The notes under the pieces are model-generated. The model had not been told where the DNA came from, ran no database searches, and was given only the letters and a program-made list of their open reading frames with translations. Position numbers and translations under genes: made by a program. A DNA stretch of 64,000 nt from the human T2T-CHM13v2.0 reference genome, Homo sapiens, in NCBI RefSeq assembly GCF_009914755.1, contig NC_060940.1, one strand, 5' to 3'. Positions 4,507-59,019 of this stretch are shown one piece after another. Each line of letters begins with the position of its first letter. Positions within the stretch are counted from its first letter, which is position 1.

Positions 4507-4873
<367 letters not shown>

Positions 4874-28244: not shown

Positions 28245-30200
28245 TAAAGCTATGATAATTAAGACAATGTGAGATTAATAAAAACCAGTGAATCATAATA
28301 AATCAACAGGACAGAATACAGTATGCAACTAGAGCCTTACATTTATGATCAGTTGATTTTCAAAAATGGTGCACAAACAATTCAATGAAACATGATAACC
28401 TTTTTAATAAAAGTTTCTGAAACAACTGGATATCCAGATGCAAAAAAGTGAACTTTGACTCATATCCCATGCCACACAAAAATGAATCAAAATGGACTAC
28501 AGACCTAAATGCAAAATCTAAAACTACAATGTTTTTAGAAAGTGACATAGAAGAAAATTGTTGCCTTCTTGCATTAGGGAAATATTGCTTAAAAATAACA
28601 CCAAAAACTCAATTCGTAAAAGAAAATTGATAAATTGGACTTCATCATAAAGTAAAACATTTGCTCTTCAAAAGGCATTATTACAAAAATAAAGAGGTGA
28701 TTCACAGACTGGTAGAAAATATTTATAAAACACATCTATCAAATGGTTTATATCTTAAAAATGTAAGAAATTCTAACAACTCAATAACAAGAAGACAGAT
28801 GCCCTAAATTTTAAAAAAAGCAAAAGTTTTCAGCAGGCACTTCACACAAAAAGATAAATAGATGGCAAATAAGCACATTAAAAGATACACAACATAATTA
28901 ACCCTGGGAAAATTCAAATTAAAAGCATAACAAGATAATATCATGTACCCACCAGAATGCCTAAAGTTAAAGATAAGTCATGCCAAATATTGGTAAAGAT
29001 AGTAAACAGCTCTTACATACTGCTGGTGGAAATATAACATTGCATAACCCCTGTGGAAAACAATATGGCAGTGTCTTAAAAAGTTAATCATGTACATATA
29101 ATACCACATGGCCCAGCTATTCTTCTAGGTACTTATCCAAGAAAAATGAAAGTATATGACCACACAATTACTTCTAAATAAAAGCATATAGAAACATTAC
29201 TTGTAATAGCCAAAGACTGGAAATAATGAAAACGTCCATCAACAGATGAGTGAATAAATAAATTGTGGCATATCCACACAGTGGTGTACCACTCAGCAAT
29301 GAAAAGGAACAAAATATTGATAACTATTGTGTCCAGAATTGGTTCCTTCCAGTAGGTTCTTGGTCTCCTTGACTTCAAGAATGAAGCCGCAGACCCTTGT
29401 GGTGAGTGTTACAGTTCTTAAAGATGGTGTGTCCAGAGTTTGTTCCTTCAGATGTTCAGATGCGTCCAGAGTTTCTTCCTTCCGGTGGGTTCGTGGTCTT
29501 GCTTGACTTCAGGGGTGAAGCTGCAGACCTTTGTTGTGAGTGTTATAGCTCATAAAGGAAGTGCGGACCCAAAGAGTGAGGAGCAGCAAGATTTATTGTG
29601 AAGAGCCAAAGAACAAAGCCTCCACAACATGGAAACGGACCCGAGCGGGTTGCAGCTGTTGGTTGGGTGGCCAGCTTTTATTCCCTTATTTGGCCCTGCC
29701 CACGTCCTGCTGATTGGTCCATTTTACAGAGTGTTGATTGGCCCATTTTACAGAGTGCCGATTGGTCCGTTTTTACAGAGTGCTGATTGGTGCGTTTACA
29801 AACCTTTAGCTAGACACAGAGCACTGATTGGTGCATTTACAAACTTTAACTAGACACAGAGCGCTGATTGGTGCGTTTTTACAGAGTGCTGATTGGTGCA
29901 TTTACAAACCTTTAGCTAGACACAGAGCACTGATTAGTGCATTTACAAACGTTTAGCTAGACAGAAAAGTTCTCCAAGTCCCTACCCGACCTAGAAGCCA
30001 AGCCGGCTTCACCTCTCACTATTAAATATGAGTGAATCCCAAAATTATTCTTAGTGTAAGAAGCCAGACAAAAGGAGTACACAGGGTATGATTCAATTCA
30101 TAAGAATTCTACAGAATGAAAATTTGTCTATAGGAACAGAAAGCAGACCAGTGGCTGCCTGAGGATAGGTTGGGAGAAGGGAATGATGCAGGATGTGGTG
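28245..30200 (+). mobile_element. L1MC/ME-type 3' portion, split by LTR12
   Basis: ORF2 C-terminal and 3'UTR motifs (aacaactggatatcc, tccatcaacagatgagtgaataaataaattgtgg, gaaagcagaccagtggctgcc). Confidence 0.8.
29328..30018 (-). mobile_element. LTR12-family (ERV9/HERV-9) solo LTR, short variant
   Basis: tgtgtccagaattggttcc...ggcttcacctctca; tandem gctgattggtgc..tttaca repeats; exact 4-bp TSD ctat at 29324-29327 and 30019-30022. Confidence 0.92.
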
Positions 30201-36700: not shown

Positions 36701-37837
36701 CTCCTGATTCTCTAGAAATAAAAGTGATTATGAGAGGATTGTGAACAATGGTAAGCCAACAAATTGAATGGCATAGATGAAATGAACAAATTCCTAGAAA
36801 CACAAAACCTACCAAGACTAAATCTGAATAGACCTATAATTAGTAAGGAGAATGAATAAGTAATTTTTAAAAATTCTAACAAAGAAAAGCCCAGGACATA
36901 ATGGCTTCATTGGTGACATCTACCAAACATTTAAAGAAAAACTAATAGCAATTCTATTCAAAGTTTTCCAAAACATTGAAGAGGAGGGAACACTTTCTAA
37001 TTAATTCTATGAGCTCAGTATTACCTTTATATCAAAGCCAGGCAAATAAGTTATAGAAAAAGAAAACTACAAACCAATATCCCTCATGAAAATTGATGCA
37101 AAAATCCTCAAGTAAATACCTGCAAACCGAATTCAGCAGCACGTTAAGAGGATTATGTGCCATGATCTAGTGGGATTTATTCCTAAAATGCAATGACGGT
37201 TCAAAATATGAAAATCAACTAATGAAGGAAGTTCGAAAAAATCCACATGATCATAGCAATTGAGGCAAGAAAAAAAGCATTTGACAAAATTTAACACTCT
37301 TTTTTAATAAAAACTCATAACAAACTAGAAATAGAAAAAAAAGTGAATTCAACATAATAAAAGCCACATACGAAAAATCCACAGTGAACATTTTACTGCC
37401 TAGTGGAAGACTGAAAGCTTTTCCTCCGAGATCAGGAACAAGAAAAAGAGGCCTGCTTTCACTACTTCTATTAAACATTATATTTCTAGCCAGATACTAA
37501 GGCAAGAAAAAAATAAAAGGCATCTAAGATGCCTTTTATTAGAAAGAAGTAAAATTATTTCTGTTTATGGCTGATACAATCATATATTTAGAAAATTCTA
37601 AAGAATTCATACCAAAAACCTCTTAAAGCTAATAAATGAATTCACAGTAGCAGGATACAAAGTCAACACAGAAAAACCAGTTACATTTGTATACACTAAC
37701 AATGAACAATCTAAAAATAAAGTTATTAAAACAATTTCATTTACACTAGCATCAGAAGAATAAAATACTTACAAATTAACTTAACCAAGGAGGTTAAAAA
37801 CATAAACAATGAAAAATATAAAACATTGCTGAAATAA

Positions 37838-38314
37838 CTTTTTTTAACTTTTATTTTAGGTTTGGGGGTACAAGTGAAGATTTCTTACATTGTCCATTTT
37901 CTAGAAGCAAGTACATTTTCTAGAAGCTTTCTATCCCCACTTCTGGTGAATATCAGGCTACCTTGTTTGCCCTCAGATCATTCATTCATTCAAATTACAT
38001 TTACTTATCAAATATTTATAAAGTTTATACCACATGTCAAGCACTGTTCTAGGCATTAAGGATACAGCAGTGAAAAAGACAACAAGACCCCTGCTCTTAA
38101 ACAGGATTAAGATGGAAAATATACAAGTAAAATATACAGGTAAAATATACAGGTAAACTCACAGCACAGGGGTTTGCTGTACAGATTATTTCATCACCCA
38201 GGAATTAAGCCCAGTACCCAATAGTTATCTTTTCTGTTCCTCTCCCTCCTCCCATCCTTCACCCTCAAGTAGACCTGTGTCTGTTGTTTTCTTCTTTGTG
38301 TTCATAAGTTCTCA
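37838..38314 (-). mobile_element. 5'-truncated L1PA13-16-type 3' end inserted antisense in L1MB, itself interrupted at 37891-38150
   Basis: tttaacttttattttaggtttgggggtac...ttacat|aggtaaactc...acagattatttcatcacccagg...ttcataagttctca; TSD gaaataa(c/a)tttt at 37831-37842 and 38315-38326. Confidence 0.85.
37907..38131 (+). repeat. 225-bp direct duplicate of 42648-42872
   Basis: base-by-base match with 3 mismatches; ORFs 37862 and 42591 share the same peptide tail. Confidence 0.97.
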
Positions 38315-39180
38315 GAAATAAATTTTACAAGATGGAAATAAGTGGAAACACATCCCATGTTCATGGCTTGGAAGACAAATATTCTTAAGGTATCAATATT
38401 ACCCAAATCAATCTACAGACTCAATGTAATCCCTCATCAAAATCCCAGTGATGTTTTTTGTAGAAATAGAAAAAAAACCCATCCTAAAATGTATATGGAA
38501 TCTCAAGGACCCCAAGTAACCACAATAATATTGAAAATAAAGGACAAAGTTGGAGGACTCACATTTTCTGATTTCAAAACTTACTACAATGCTACAGTAA
38601 TTAAAACAGTGAGCTACTGGCATACAGATAGACATATAGACCAAAGGAATATAATAGAGGTTCAGAAATAATCTCTCACATATTTGGCAAGTAAGTTTTG
38701 ACAAGGATGCCAAGATCATTCAATGGAAAAAAACAGTCTCTTAAACAAATGTGCTTAAAAACATGAATATCCACATGAAAAAGAATGAAATTGTACTCTT
38801 ACCTAACACCATATGCAAAAATCAACTTAATATGAATTAAAGTTCTAAATGTAAAATTTTAAAGGATAAAGCTCTTGGAAAAAAATATAGGGGTAAAGCT
38901 TGATGACATTGGATTTAGCAATGATTTCTTGGATATGACACCAAAAGCCTGGATGACAACAATGATAAAAATATATAAATTTGACTTTATTAAAATTTTA
39001 ATGTATTTGTGCCTCAAAATACAATATCAACAGAGTAAAAAGGTAACCAACCAATTGGAAGAATATATTTTCAAGTTATATGTCTGACAAGGTATTAATA
39101 TCCAGAATATATAGAGAACTCCTAAAACTCAACCAAAAACCAAACTAATTGTTTAAAAAATGGGCAAAGAACTTGAGTAG

Positions 39181-39539
<359 letters not shown>

Positions 39540-40384
39540 TTAAAAAACACAGAAAATAACAAGTGTTAGTAAGAATAATAAATTAATTGGAACTCTTGTG
39601 TGCTGTTGCTTGGAATATAAAGTGATTCAGCTACTGTGGAAAACAGTGTCATAATTTCTCAAAGCAAAAATAGAATTAGCATATTATCCAGCAATTCCAC
39701 CTTGGGATATACACCCAATGAATTGAAGGCAAGGTCTCAAACAGGTATTTGTACACCCATGTTCAGAGCAGCATTATTCACAATAGCCAAGATGTGGAAG
39801 CAACACAAATGTTCATTGACAGAGGAATGGCTAAGCAAACTGTGGAATAGGCATACAATGGAATATTATTCAGCTGTTATATAAGAAGGAAATTCGGACA
39901 CATGCTGCAACATGGAGGAACCTTAAGGACATTATGCTAAATTAAATAAGCCAGACATAAAGGGCCAAATACTGTACGAATCCAATCACATGAGATACTT
40001 TAAGTAGTCAATATCATAGAGACAGAAAGTAGAATGGTGGTTGCCAGGGGCTTGGTATAGGGTAAGTGGAAATTTGTTATTTAATACATAACATTTTGGT
40101 TTTACAGAATGAAAAATATGAAGATGAGTGGCAGTGATAGCTGCACAACATTATGAATGTCTTTCATACCATTGTGTGCTTAAAAATGGTTAAAGTGGTA
40201 AATTTTATGTTATGTGTATTTTACCATAATTTTGAAACTTGGGAAAACATCTATCTTCTGAGCTTCAAACAGTGATCATTTAAATTCTCTGCAGTGCCTC
40301 CATGGAATACCATATCAAGAATCCTTTTATATTCTGTGGACAGATCTTTGGATACCATTTAGTCAAGCAGTATGAAGGAAAAGT

Positions 40385-42397: not shown

Positions 42398-42714
42398 TCT
42401 TTGATATGGTTTGGGCTATCTTCACATGTATTGTTTATTCCCATTTTATATATACTGAAACTGAGGCTCACAGGAGTTACTTTACTAGGAATGCCCAGTT
42501 TACACATGGTTAAGGTGAGAGCTCAACCCAGATTAGTTTGATGTTAAAGCCTCTGTACTTAACCATCAAATTTTCTGCCTTTCTAGAAACTTGCCCATGT
42601 TTTTTAAAAACAAGTCAAGGAACATTTCTTACTCAGGCTTTTTGAAGGCAAGTCCATTTTCTAGAAGCTTTCTATCCCCACTTCTGGTGAATATCAGGCT
42701 ACCTTGTTTGCCCT

Positions 42715-42960
42715 CAGATCATTCATTCATTCAAATTACATTTACTTATCAAATATTTATAAAGTTTATACCACATGTCAAGCACTGTTCTAGGCATTAA
42801 GGATACAGCAGTGAAAAACACAACAAGACCCCTGCTCTTAAACAGGAGTAAGATGGAAAATATACAAGTAAATGAAGAAGCTAAACAAGAAAATTTGATG
42901 AGAAAGATTAGCTATAAAAGAAACAAATAGAATGATGTGGCAGTTTATGTTTAGTTACTA
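42715..42960 (-). mobile_element. L2 3' end relic (part of the donor of the 225-bp duplicate)
   Basis: tcattcattcattcaa...aagcactgttctaggcattaaggatacagcagtgaa. Confidence 0.75.
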
Positions 42961-57516: not shown

Positions 57517-57762
57517 TGCAGTGGCACAATCTTAGCTCACTGCAGCCTCTGCCTCCCAGGTTCAAGCGATTCTTGTGCCTCAGCTTCCCAAGTAGCTGGG
57601 ATTTCAGGTGTGCACCACCGCACCCAGCTAATTTTTGTACTTTTAGTAGAGAGGGGTTTTGCCAGTTGGCCAGGCTAGTCTTGAACTCCTGACCTCAAGT
57701 GATCTGCCCACCTCAGCCTCCCAAAGTGCTGGGATTACAGGCATGAGCCACCGCACCTGACC
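57517..57762 (-). mobile_element. AluS lacking its 3' end and tail
   Basis: starts abruptly at tgcagtggcacaatcttagctcac. Confidence 0.9.
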
Positions 57763-58083: not shown

Positions 58084-58148
58084 CAAAGAGCCTTGGATGG
58101 CTTCTGATTGTTTGTTGTAAGTCTGAGCTCCAGGTGCAGTCTTAGGGC
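58084..58148 (-). repeat. 65-bp inverted copy of 58692-58756
   Basis: reverse complement matches at 63/65 positions. Confidence 0.95.
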
Positions 58149-58280
58149 GGATCACCTGAGGTCAGGAGTTCGAGACTAGCCTGGCCAACATGTCAAAACC
58201 CCATCTCTACTAAAAATACAAAAATTAGCTGGGTGTAGTGGTGCACACCTGTTATCCCAGCTATTTGGGAAGCTGAGGCA
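58145..58280 (+). mobile_element. internal AluS fragment, truncated at both ends, no tail or TSD
   Basis: gggcggatcacctgaggtcagg...gggaagctgaggca. Confidence 0.9.
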
Positions 58281-59019
58281 TAATTAAAATTAATGCGTAT
58301 ATCAGGATGTTCCTAAAGATGTCCATCTGTATTCTACATTGTATCATGTCATCTTCCAATAGTGTTACATCTCTCAAATGTGGAAAGTGTAAACTCAGTG
58401 TGCTGTGCTTCACCAGCTATTCACACATCATTGTTTAAGACTCCTGGCATTTGGGTAGCACAGCAGAATTGAGATAGGACCAAGAAAATTTTCTATTTTA
58501 GGATACTATCATCATCATTACCATTACCACCACATCATAATAATCATAATTTATTGTCTATTTAGTACTTCATTAGTCATTTCTTATATTCTAGCCTGAC
58601 CCAGTTTTCAAAATAATCAGCACCTGATACCTGGTGACCCTTTCACTCCTAAGAGGGGACTTAGAGAAATGGTAGCTCCCCATGTCCTGAAGCCCCAAGA
58701 CTGCACCTGGAGCTCAGACTTACAACCAACAATCAGAAGCCATCCAAGGCTCTTTGTTCCTCTTTCCCCATGTGCCAAATGGACTGAGAATTGTACTTAT
58801 TTCATATGGTTGATATGATGATTAATTGAGTTACTATATGTAGAATATATAGACAAATGGCCTATATCTGACTTTGTTAAATAAATGGATAAACACCATA
58901 AGTATGGAGGCCTTGCCAGAGATGCTAAAGGGAGGCTATGGGATCATCGTGTAGCTGTGAGGACCATAACTGTGTGAAAATGCAGCTGTGCTCCGCTCAG
59001 AGAAGCTCGGTGTATAGAC

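What the first reader, a model, noticed from the sequence alone, without database searches (positions are those of the whole stretch)
37891..38150. Recent 225-bp locally templated insertion with stuttered junctions, copied from 4.74 kb downstream
Seen: 37907-38131 matches 42648-42872 with only 3 mismatches. It sits exactly inside the antisense L1PA 3' end, splitting ...ttacat|aggtaaactc.... It has no poly-A, no TSD and no mobile-element termini, and it spans a unique-sequence/L2 boundary of the donor. The left junction has an extra abortive copy of the donor start (gtccattttctagaag, 37892-37907). The right junction stutters aatatac(a/g)(a/g)gtaa three times (38118-38156) before rejoining the L1. 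The recipient flank caagtgaag-atttcttac (37871-37888) also resembles sequence just upstream of the donor (caagtcaaggaacatttcttac, 42611-42632). Inference: a DNA-break repair scar from iterative microhomology-primed synthesis (polymerase-theta end joining or MMBIR/FoSTeS). The ~1.3% divergence suggests a hominoid-age or younger event.
Basis: partly seen in the sequence, partly recalled or inferred. Interest (0 to 1): 0.8.

Follow-up and report, generated by a model that had tools for sequence, protein, structure and literature searches.

The report
Locally templated DNA-repair insertion scar
A 260-base patch copied from 4.7 kb away was stitched into an old L1 fragment by stop-and-go DNA copying at a break or stalled fork; it is a clear example of a known kind of human mutation, not a new kind of element.

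Summary
37907-38131 equals 42648-42872 at 222 of 225 bases. The T2T genome holds only these two copies.

The patch sits inside a 217-bp antisense L1 3' fragment. In 28 of its 29 closest relatives the L1 sequence runs straight across the site, and the 29th lacks one base there. So no L1 base was lost or duplicated. There is no poly-A and no target-site duplication.

The junctions parse into short re-copied pieces:
- a 17-nt exact second copy of the donor start;
- a 13-nt unit present three times, two of them donor/L1 chimeras.

These pieces are joined at 1-3-nt microhomologies and one 6-of-7 microhomeology.

New here:
- The 30 nt left of the break have their best match in the whole window just upstream of the donor tract (0 of 6314 other windows do as well).
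- All three private L1 substitutions there carry the donor-upstream base.
- The donor has since acquired a substitution that the copy lacks.

Best reading: a germline templated insertion made by microhomology-mediated template switching (FoSTeS/MMBIR-like or polymerase-theta-like). It is a new member of a known kind. Its age and whether it is polymorphic could not be tested.

The parts
37831..37837 (.). Left copy of the 7-nt target-site duplication (GAAATAA) of the antisense L1 3' fragment, which is nested in an older sense-oriented L1
   Evidence: In 4 of 11 relatives of the older L1 where both flanks align up to the boundary (L055, L058, L063, L064), the left flank ends at 37837 and the right flank starts at 38315 with a 7-nt overlap.
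37838..37890 (-). Left part of the recipient: the 3' end of an antisense L1 fragment, with the T run 37839-37845 as the complement of its poly-A, ending ...TTACAT
   Evidence: Aligns with 29 related L1 3' ends taken from the genome.
37870..37888 (+). Homeology patch in the recipient's left flank that matches sequence just upstream of the donor tract. It carries the three private substitutions 37873 A, 37880 A and 37884 C.
   Evidence: 18 of 19 aligned bases plus a 4-nt gap against 42610-42632. 0 of 6314 other 60-nt windows score as high. The recipient's base is held by 0-1, 2-5 and 0-2 of 29 relatives at these three sites.
37891..37891 (+). Orphan T at the leftmost join, matched by neither L1 nor donor
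   Evidence: Relatives read A after TTACAT (28 of 29). The donor has A before GTCC.
37892..37908 (+). Segment A: a second, partial copy of the donor start, equal to 42652-42668
   Evidence: 17 of 17 exact in the greedy parse. It keeps the donor's C where the main copy has A at 37913.
37907..38131 (+). Segment B: the main 225-bp copy of 42648-42872. It shares GC (37907-37908) with segment A.
   Evidence: 222 of 225 identical. The genome search finds only this copy and the donor at full length.
38118..38156 (+). Three 13-nt units. Unit 1 (38118-38130) is pure donor. Units 2 and 3 (38131-38143, 38144-38156) are chimeras of donor ATATAC and L1 AGGTAA.
   Evidence: Tandem Repeats Finder: period 13, 3.2 copies. 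In the parse, ATATACA equals 42860-42866 twice and GGTAAA equals L1 38152-38157.
38151..38314 (-). Right part of the recipient L1 fragment, starting AGGTAAACTC. A private 3-nt change at 38162-38164 lies 12-14 nt from the join.
   Evidence: 87-95% identity to 39 other L1 3' ends. Family similarity stops at about 38314.
38315..38321 (.). Right copy of the 7-nt target-site duplication of the L1 fragment
42581..42595 (+). Left arm of an inverted repeat at the donor's left boundary
   Evidence: The DNA fold of 42570-42680 pairs it with 42648-42667. MFE is -13.8 kcal/mol, z = -2.56, and 3 of 200 shuffles fold as well.
42610..42632 (+). Donor-upstream homeology patch. It was not copied and lies 16-38 nt left of the copied tract.
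42648..42872 (+). Donor tract. Its first 20 nt are the right arm of the inverted repeat. Its last 7 nt, AAGTAAA, match L1 AGGTAAA at 6 of 7. 42819 C is derived.
   Evidence: At 42819, related old repeats read G in 16, A in 4 and C in 0 of 20.
42711..42838 (+). Old dispersed repeat wholly inside the donor tract, so the copy's ends are not repeat ends
   Evidence: 25 partial genome hits at 72-94% identity, all within query 64-191. A wider query gives hits only within 42719-42835.

Best explanation
This is a one-off, non-mobile templated insertion. A 3' DNA end inside a 217-bp antisense L1 fragment, at a double-strand break or a stalled fork, left its own template. It annealed by short homology to sequence 4.74 kb downstream on the same chromosome and in the same orientation, and copied 42648-42872. 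It fell off and re-annealed several times, then was rejoined to the L1 with no L1 base lost or gained.

Shown:
- The copy relationship and its uniqueness in the genome.
- The intact target.
- The make-up of the junctions.
- The non-random homeology between the left flank and the donor-upstream sequence.

Inferred:
1. Synthesis was most likely primed from the right-hand L1 end, with L1 AGGTAAA annealed to donor AAGTAAA (6 of 7). The join keeps the L1 version.
2. It then ran leftwards, with a first abortive copy of about 9 nt.
3. A 13-nt slip back at AAA was followed by the 225-nt run.
4. A 19-nt slip back at GC, at the donor's inverted repeat, gave the extra 17-nt piece.
5. The last join to the left L1 end was blunt with one added T, like end joining.
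6. The third 13-nt unit arose by slippage, during fill-in or later.

The pathway is FoSTeS/MMBIR-like replicative switching (about 45%) or break repair by synthesis-dependent or polymerase-theta-type copying (about 35%).
For: Copy and uniqueness:
- 222 of 225 identity.
- 27 genome matches: 2 full-length (100% and 99%) and 25 partial ones at 72-94% within query 64-191.

Target:
- None of 29 related L1 3' ends has an insert. 28 of 29 are contiguous TTACAT|AGGTAAAC.
- The L1 fragment is 5-13% diverged from its closest relatives against 1.3% between insert and donor, so the insert is much younger than the L1.

Junction parse:
- Order: L1, orphan T, 17-nt exact donor piece, 225-nt donor tract, ATATACA (donor), GGTAAA (L1), ATATACA (donor), L1.
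- The shared bases at the joins are GC, AAA, A, AAA and A.
- Arrays of period 10 or more cover only about 1% of the window (summed by hand), so a stutter lying exactly on a join is unlikely by chance.

Left-flank homeology:
- 3 of 4977 random window pairs reach its score.
- 0 of 6314 other windows reach it.
- The 29 relatives' flanks score 6.0-11.5 against 13.5 for the recipient.
- All 3 private substitutions among the 40 sites around the break carry the donor-upstream base.

Independent history of the two copies:
- The copy keeps the ancestral G where the donor now has C (16 G, 4 A, 0 C of 20 relatives).

Literature, passages read:
- Microhomeology of 7-14 bp at 70-90% identity occurs at about a third of join-points. 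Iterative switches and flanking point changes are described signatures of replicative repair. The side that matches the join perfectly is read as the primer (PMC6902434).
- Germline templated insertions built from up to five templates exist in normal human genomes (PMC8421209).
Against: - The leftmost join has no microhomology and one orphan base. A purely microhomology-primed scheme does not predict that.
- The direction of synthesis rests on that asymmetry alone.
- The homeology patch was not itself the priming site. The sequence between it and the copied tract (42633-42647) is absent from the insert, so its role is unexplained.
- A tract of 225 nt from 4.74 kb away is, from memory, longer and more distant than typical polymerase-theta inserts.
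- It also falls outside the working definition used for germline MMBIR inserts, which are inverted and within 100 bp.
- Units 2 and 3 could be ordinary later slippage. A single later G-to-A change in unit 1 would also mimic the donor.
- No outgroup or second human assembly was available. The empty site is inferred from paralogous L1 copies, not from an ortholog.
Confidence: 0.8

Rival explanations
1. Simple insertion plus later slippage. One template switch out and one back inserted roughly 42652-42866, and the stutters at both ends are unrelated tandem duplications and point changes that arose afterwards.
For: Once two 13-nt units lie in tandem, ordinary replication slippage can add a third. 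L1 AGGTAAA and donor AAGTAAA differ by one base, so a later G-to-A change in unit 1 would look donor-templated. The units are 96% alike.
Against: Both ends of the insert carry a stutter exactly at the join, while arrays of period 10 or more cover about 1% of the window. Between the two left-hand copies lie the bases AA, which match the donor upstream of segment A (42650-42651). A tandem duplication inside the insert could not supply them. Unit 1 matches the donor through 42872, 6 nt beyond the point where a simple join would end.
Confidence: 0.12
2. RNA-templated patch (class 2 templated sequence insertion). A local transcript across 42648-42872 was reverse-transcribed and used to fill a double-strand break by end joining.
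For: There is no target-site duplication, no poly-A and no L1 endonuclease-type target. One non-templated base and short microhomologies are present, as described for class 2 events (PMC5110952, passages read).
Against: The donor is 4.74 kb away on the same strand, not at a distant locus. The hub's table annotates no gene in the window. The right junction alternates between donor and L1 sequence in 6-7-nt steps, which needs the donor template and the L1 end together. The flank homeology is to donor-upstream sequence that was not copied.
Confidence: 0.05
3. Capture of a free DNA fragment. A piece of replicated or excised DNA from 42648-42872 was ligated into a break by non-homologous end joining.
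For: The leftmost join is blunt with one orphan T. The donor is still in place, as expected if the fragment came from over-replication or a sister chromatid.
Against: Ligation does not explain the 17-nt re-copy, the chimeric donor/L1 13-nt units or the 6-of-7 microhomeology at the right join. It does not explain the flank homeology to uncopied donor-upstream sequence either.
Confidence: 0.03
4. Not an insertion event at all: retrotransposition or 3' transduction, gene conversion between older paralogs, or an assembly artefact.
For: The recipient lies in L1 sequence, and the donor contains an old dispersed repeat.
Against: There are two copies only, and the copy's ends do not coincide with the repeat's ends. 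There is no poly-A and no duplication of the target. None of 29 L1 relatives has anything at this site. The copy keeps an ancestral base that the donor has lost, which a mis-assembly of the same reads would not give.
Confidence: 0.02

Closest known systems
FoSTeS/MMBIR template-switch junctions with microhomeology at human copy-number-variant breakpoints (PLP1 locus study, PMC6902434; passages read)
   Same: Templated pieces of 11 to 861 bp taken from nearby sequence. Iterative switches give several join-points in one junction. Microhomology of 2-9 bp and microhomeology of 7-14 bp at 70-90% identity. Small changes in the flanks. The join keeps the primer's version of the imperfect match.
   Different: Those junctions accompany large duplications or triplications. 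Here the only product is a 260-bp insertion with a precise return to the starting template. The long homeology patch lies beside the join, not at it.
Germline MMBIR-type templated insertions detected by MMBSearch (PMC8421209; passages read)
   Same: Small templated insertions flanked by microhomology, sometimes built from up to five templates, present as inherited variants in normal human genomes without larger rearrangement.
   Different: That signature is defined as inverted copies of templates within 100 bp, from 10 bp up to read length. This one is a direct copy, 225 bp long, from 4.74 kb away.
Class 2 templated sequence insertion polymorphisms (PMC5110952; passages read). Long-read surveys list similar 'template sequence insertions': 15 candidates among the 146 insertions not related to repeats (PMC8082928; passages read).
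   Same: A patch with no target-site duplication and no poly-A, microhomology and a non-templated base at the joins, donor left intact.
   Different: Class 2 events are described as coming from distant regions through RNA, often with microdeletion of the target. Here the donor is local, the target lost nothing, and the junctions show repeated copying that alternates between donor and target.
Polymerase-theta-mediated end joining with templated inserts (seen here only through the discussion and reference list of PMC7615360; typical sizes are recalled)
   Same: Repeated abortive priming at 1-4-nt homologies, and stutters of 6-17 nt that re-copy sequence next to the join.
   Different: From memory, such inserts are usually tens of bases copied from the immediate flanks, not 225 bases from 4.74 kb away.

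Membership tests
Replicative template-switch insertion (FoSTeS/MMBIR type) | Inserted sequence is a copy of nearby genomic sequence and the donor is retained | tested here: met
   222 of 225 identity to a tract 4741 bp downstream in the same orientation; both copies are present.
Replicative template-switch insertion (FoSTeS/MMBIR type) | Microhomology or microhomeology at the join-points | tested here: inconclusive
   Five of six joins share GC, AAA, A, AAA and A. The right join also has a 6-of-7 microhomeology. The leftmost join has none and carries one orphan T.
Replicative template-switch insertion (FoSTeS/MMBIR type) | More than one template switch within one junction | tested here: met
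   The parse needs at least four switches even if the third 13-nt unit is later slippage.
Replicative template-switch insertion (FoSTeS/MMBIR type) | Origin at a collapsed or stalled replication fork, with the polymerases of break-induced replication | not testable with these tools
   Sequence alone cannot separate a fork event from repair of a two-ended break. The base-perfect return to the L1 fits a fork event but does not prove it.
MMBSearch-type germline MMBIR insertion (PMC8421209) | Inverted copy of a template lying within 100 bp of the insertion | tested here: not met
   Direct orientation, template 4.74 kb away. Definition taken.
Class 2 templated sequence insertion polymorphism | No target-site duplication, no poly-A, end-joining features at the joins | tested here: met
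   There is no microdeletion, however.
Class 2 templated sequence insertion polymorphism | Template from a distant region, copied through RNA, and polymorphic among people | tested here: inconclusive
   The donor is local, so the distance feature is not met. RNA origin and polymorphism cannot be tested here.
L1-mediated retrotransposition or transduction (class 1 insertion) | Target-site duplication of 5 bp or more, poly-A tail, T-rich endonuclease target | tested here: not met
   The flanks TTACAT and AGGTAAAC are contiguous in 28 of 29 relatives with nothing duplicated. There is no A run at either end of the insert.
Tandem duplication | The copy lies next to its source | tested here: not met
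   Start-to-start spacing is 4741 bp. Only the small stutters at the two ends are tandem.

The most novel reading that the evidence does not exclude
The scar records both broken ends engaged with one ectopic template.
- The left end was base-paired to the donor locus 16-38 nt upstream of the copied tract, through an 18-of-19 homeology 'anchor' separate from the priming microhomology.
- While paired, it was patchily corrected to donor sequence at 37873, 37880 and 37884.
- Synthesis primed from the right end ran towards it and stopped at the donor's inverted repeat.

If so, template choice over kilobases was set by an anchor homeology rather than by the few bases at the join. The flank substitutions would then be part of the event, not background divergence.
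Probability: 0.2. Interest if true: 0.5.

Novelty: new member of a known kind. Interest (0 to 1): 0.3.

Why it matters
Templated insertions are an accepted signature of error-prone break and fork repair, so the class is not new and the locus has no annotated function. The value of this case is that it is easy to read. The target can be reconstructed to the base from 29 paralogous L1 copies, the donor is unique, and the event is young enough that every join can be parsed. It gives one concrete, cheaply testable case for two open details: the direction of copying, and whether a longer imperfect homology beside the join steers template choice or is itself rewritten during the event. Comparison with ape orthologs would settle both.

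Tried and rejected
- **Meiotic hotspot motif.** The 13-mer PRDM9 motif (recalled) has 3 matches in the window, at 4565, 48985 and 63451. None is near the break or the donor, so there is no support for a hotspot origin.
- **Right flank against donor-downstream sequence.** No similarity beyond chance: score 6.0, reached by 65% of random pairs.
- **Old repeat as the unit that moved.** Rejected. Its hits lie wholly inside the tract and the tract's ends are unique sequence.
- **Excess of private L1 changes near the joins.** 7 of 13 lie within 30 nt of the joins, which is 60 of about 217 nt. I ran no test. With the 3-nt change counted once the excess is weak, so I do not lean on it.
- **Mismatch spectrum.** All 3 mismatches are transversions, which hints at copying errors. 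But one is a later change in the donor, so I draw no conclusion.
- **Donor hairpin.** It is only moderately unusual (z = -2.56). Its link to the left boundary is a suggestion.
- **Published long-read catalogue.** Table S12 of PMC8082928 lists chr16 entries only at 1.09, 12.1, 89.1 and 89.6 Mb. My searches of the supplement's other lists by coordinate failed, because phrase search does not cross table cells; a control term known to be present was not found either. That check is therefore uninformative. Coordinates of other assemblies are also unknown to me.
- **Other supplements.** Those of the other papers were not opened. They may list this locus.

Full report
**1. Observation**

- 37907-38131 and 42648-42872 align without gaps at 222 of 225 bases. 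The mismatches are 37913 A/C, 38078 G/C and 38107 T/G. BLAST E within the window is 5.7e-112.
- A self-comparison of the whole window finds only four non-self pairs of at least 40 nt at 93% or more. This pair is by far the longest.
- A search of the window's own assembly (3.1 Gb, 24 contigs) gives 27 matches. Two are full-length, namely the insert itself and the donor at 99%. The other 25 are partial, at 72-94% identity, and all fall within query positions 64-191.
- A wider donor query gives dispersed hits only within 42719-42835.

So the tract is unique apart from an old dispersed repeat lying wholly inside it, and the tract's ends are not repeat ends. From memory that repeat looks like MIR rather than L2. 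No tool here names repeat families.

**2. The target**

I took the 150 nt right of the insert as a query. Of 3418 candidates, 40 were scored. The 39 other than the window's own copy are L1 3' ends at 87-95% identity.
- I examined the 29 that were returned as loci. None has anything inserted at the site. 28 of 29 read straight through ...TTACAT|AGGTAAAC..., and the 29th lacks one base there.
- No L1 base was therefore lost or duplicated, and neither end of the insert has an A run.
- Family similarity on the right ends at about 38314.
- Relatives of the sequence left of 37838 continue with the sequence from 38315. In the 4 of 11 relatives where both flanks align up to the boundary, the two overlap by 7 nt.

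The layers are therefore: an older sense-oriented L1; a 217-bp antisense L1 3' fragment with a 7-nt target-site duplication (37831-37837 and 38315-38321); and, inside that fragment, the 260-bp insert at 37891-38150. The L1 fragment differs by 5-13% from its closest relatives, against 1.3% between insert and donor. The insert is much the youngest layer. The label 'L1PA' could not be checked.

**3. Junction anatomy**

A greedy exact-match parse against the donor region (both strands) and the two L1 flanks gives this order:
1. L1 up to 37890.
2. One orphan T (37891).
3. 37892-37908, equal to donor 42652-42668 (17 of 17).
4. The 225-nt tract.
5. ATATACA, equal to donor 42860-42866.
6. GGTAAA, equal to L1 38152-38157.
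7. ATATACA again.
8. L1 from 38151/38152 onward.

Further points:
- The bases shared at successive joins are none, GC, AAA, A, AAA and A.
- The last 7 nt of the donor tract (AAGTAAA) match the first 7 nt of the right L1 flank (AGGTAAA) at 6 of 7.
- Units 2 and 3 of the 13-nt repeat both carry the L1 G. They are copies of the donor/L1 join itself, not of the donor. Only one position varies among the three units.
- Tandem Repeats Finder reports the array at 38116-38157.
- Over the whole window, arrays of period 10 or more other than this one cover about 740 bp, roughly 1% (summed by hand). An array lying exactly on a join is unlikely to be coincidence.

**4. The left-flank homeology**

- The 30 nt left of the break align with 42610-42632 at 18 of 19 bases plus a 4-nt gap. 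That patch lies 16-38 nt upstream of the copied tract and is not part of the copy.
- Only 3 of 4977 random pairs of window segments score as high.
- None of 6314 other 60-nt windows scores as high against this flank; the best other score is 12.5, against 13.5 here.
- The corresponding flanks of the 29 L1 relatives score 6.0-11.5 against the same donor-upstream sequence.
- Across the 40 sites around the break, the window's L1 differs from the majority of its relatives at exactly three: 37873 A, 37880 A and 37884 C. The window's base is held by 0-1, 2-5 and 0-2 of 29 relatives, depending on the alignment. All three are the donor-upstream base.
- Other informative sites stay L1-type: the 4-nt gap, 37879 G and 37889-37890 AT.

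The link between this patch and the event is therefore real. Whether the patch steered template choice or was partly rewritten during the event cannot be decided here.

**5. Other features**

- The first 20 nt of the donor tract form the right arm of an inverted repeat with 42581-42595. The single-strand DNA fold has z = -2.56, and 3 of 200 shuffles fold as well. Both left-hand pieces are copies of that arm.
- 12-14 nt right of the join, the L1 carries a private 3-nt change at 38162-38164, held by 0-2 of 29 relatives. It creates CACAG twice in a row.
- Of 13 private L1 differences, 7 lie within 30 nt of the joins. I ran no test on this and do not lean on it.

**6. Polarity and age**

- At the mismatch 38078/42819, old repeats related to the tract read G in 16, A in 4 and C in 0 of 20 when aligned to the insert. 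Aligned to the donor they read G in 11, A in 4 and C in 0 of 15. The insert keeps the ancestral G, and the donor changed afterwards.
- At 37913, the 17-nt second copy keeps the donor's C, so the A is derived in the insert.
- The two copies thus have separate histories. This speaks against an assembly artefact and shows the event is not brand new.
- With 3 differences in 225 nt and recalled substitution rates, the age is of the order of 10 million years, with a range from about 1 to about 40. This is inference. No ape or second human assembly is held, so neither the age nor any polymorphism was tested.

**7. Mechanism**

The tested features are those described for microhomology- and microhomeology-mediated template switching.
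- In the PLP1 study, about a third of join-points show microhomeology of 7-14 bp at 70-90% identity. Junctions can hold several join-points from iterative switches, and templated pieces of 11 to 861 bp from nearby sequence occur. Small flank changes are seen, and the side that matches the join perfectly is read as the primer (PMC6902434, passages read).
- By that rule the right L1 end was the primer and the donor the annealing target, because the final join keeps AGGTAAA.
- The left join is blunt with one orphan base. Together these suggest that copying started at the right end, ran leftwards with two slip-backs (13 nt at AAA, 19 nt at GC), and ended with an end-joining-like capture of the left end. 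The direction is inference.
- The base-perfect return to the L1 fits a stalled-fork switch somewhat better than a resected two-ended break, but does not exclude the break.

I put about 45% on FoSTeS/MMBIR-like switching and about 35% on break repair by synthesis-dependent or polymerase-theta-type copying. Together that is 80% for the class.

**8. Rivals**

- *Later slippage behind the stutters.* This accounts for the third 13-nt unit at most. It does not explain the AA between the two left copies, which matches the donor upstream of the first piece, or unit 1 matching the donor 6 nt beyond a simple join.
- *An RNA-derived patch.* Class 2 templated sequence insertions (PMC5110952, passages read) share the lack of duplication and of poly-A. 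But the donor is local, no gene is annotated in the window (hub table), and the right junction alternates between donor and L1 in 6-7-nt steps.
- *Fragment capture by ligation.* It does not explain re-copying or the chimeric units.
- *Retrotransposition, gene conversion or artefact.* These are contradicted.

**9. Comparison with what is known, and novelty**

- Germline templated insertions from one to five templates are documented in normal human genomes. The detection signature used there is inverted copies within 100 bp (PMC8421209, passages read), which this case does not meet.
- A long-read survey of 11 people found 15 'template sequence insertion' candidates among the 146 insertions not related to repeats (PMC8082928, passages read). 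Its Table S12 lists no chr16 entry near this region. My coordinate searches of the remaining lists did not work.
- I found no sign that this locus has been described. I searched only by concept, not by locus.

The finding is a new, unusually clear member of a known kind.

**10. Verdict**

Interest is modest at 0.3. The one feature that goes beyond the textbook picture is the offset homeology patch, with three private substitutions that all match the donor-upstream sequence. Ape orthologs would resolve it at once.

Noticed in passing
window 58084-58283 (sources 58692-58756 and 57573-57708): 58084-58148 is an inverted copy (63 of 65) of 58692-58756. It is fused through a shared GGGC to a 138-nt internal Alu piece without poly-A. 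That piece's best match in the window (90.6%) is the inverted Alu at 57573-57708, and many of the differences are CpG-type. It may be an older insertion built from two templates, one on each side.
   Followed up: partly
window 37831-37837 and 38315-38321: The 217-bp antisense L1 3' fragment that received the insert is itself nested in an older sense-oriented L1, with a 7-nt target-site duplication. That makes three datable layers at one spot.
   Followed up: yes
window 38162-38164: A private three-base change in the L1 (0-2 of 29 relatives share it) creates CACAG twice in a row, 12-14 nt right of the join. It could be a small templated change made in the same event.
   Followed up: partly
window 39202-39541: An Alu flanked by an exact 18-nt direct repeat (39202-39219 and 39524-39541) lies between recipient and donor. 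If it is younger than the event, the template was about 320 bp closer at the time (family D12).
   Followed up: no
window 42581-42667: An inverted repeat lies at the donor's left boundary, with arms 42581-42595 and 42648-42667 (DNA fold z = -2.56). Both left-hand pieces of the insert are copies of its right arm.
   Followed up: partly
window 29708-29963: A complex tandem array with nested periods of 24 to 106 nt, 86-93% matches. Not examined.
   Followed up: no
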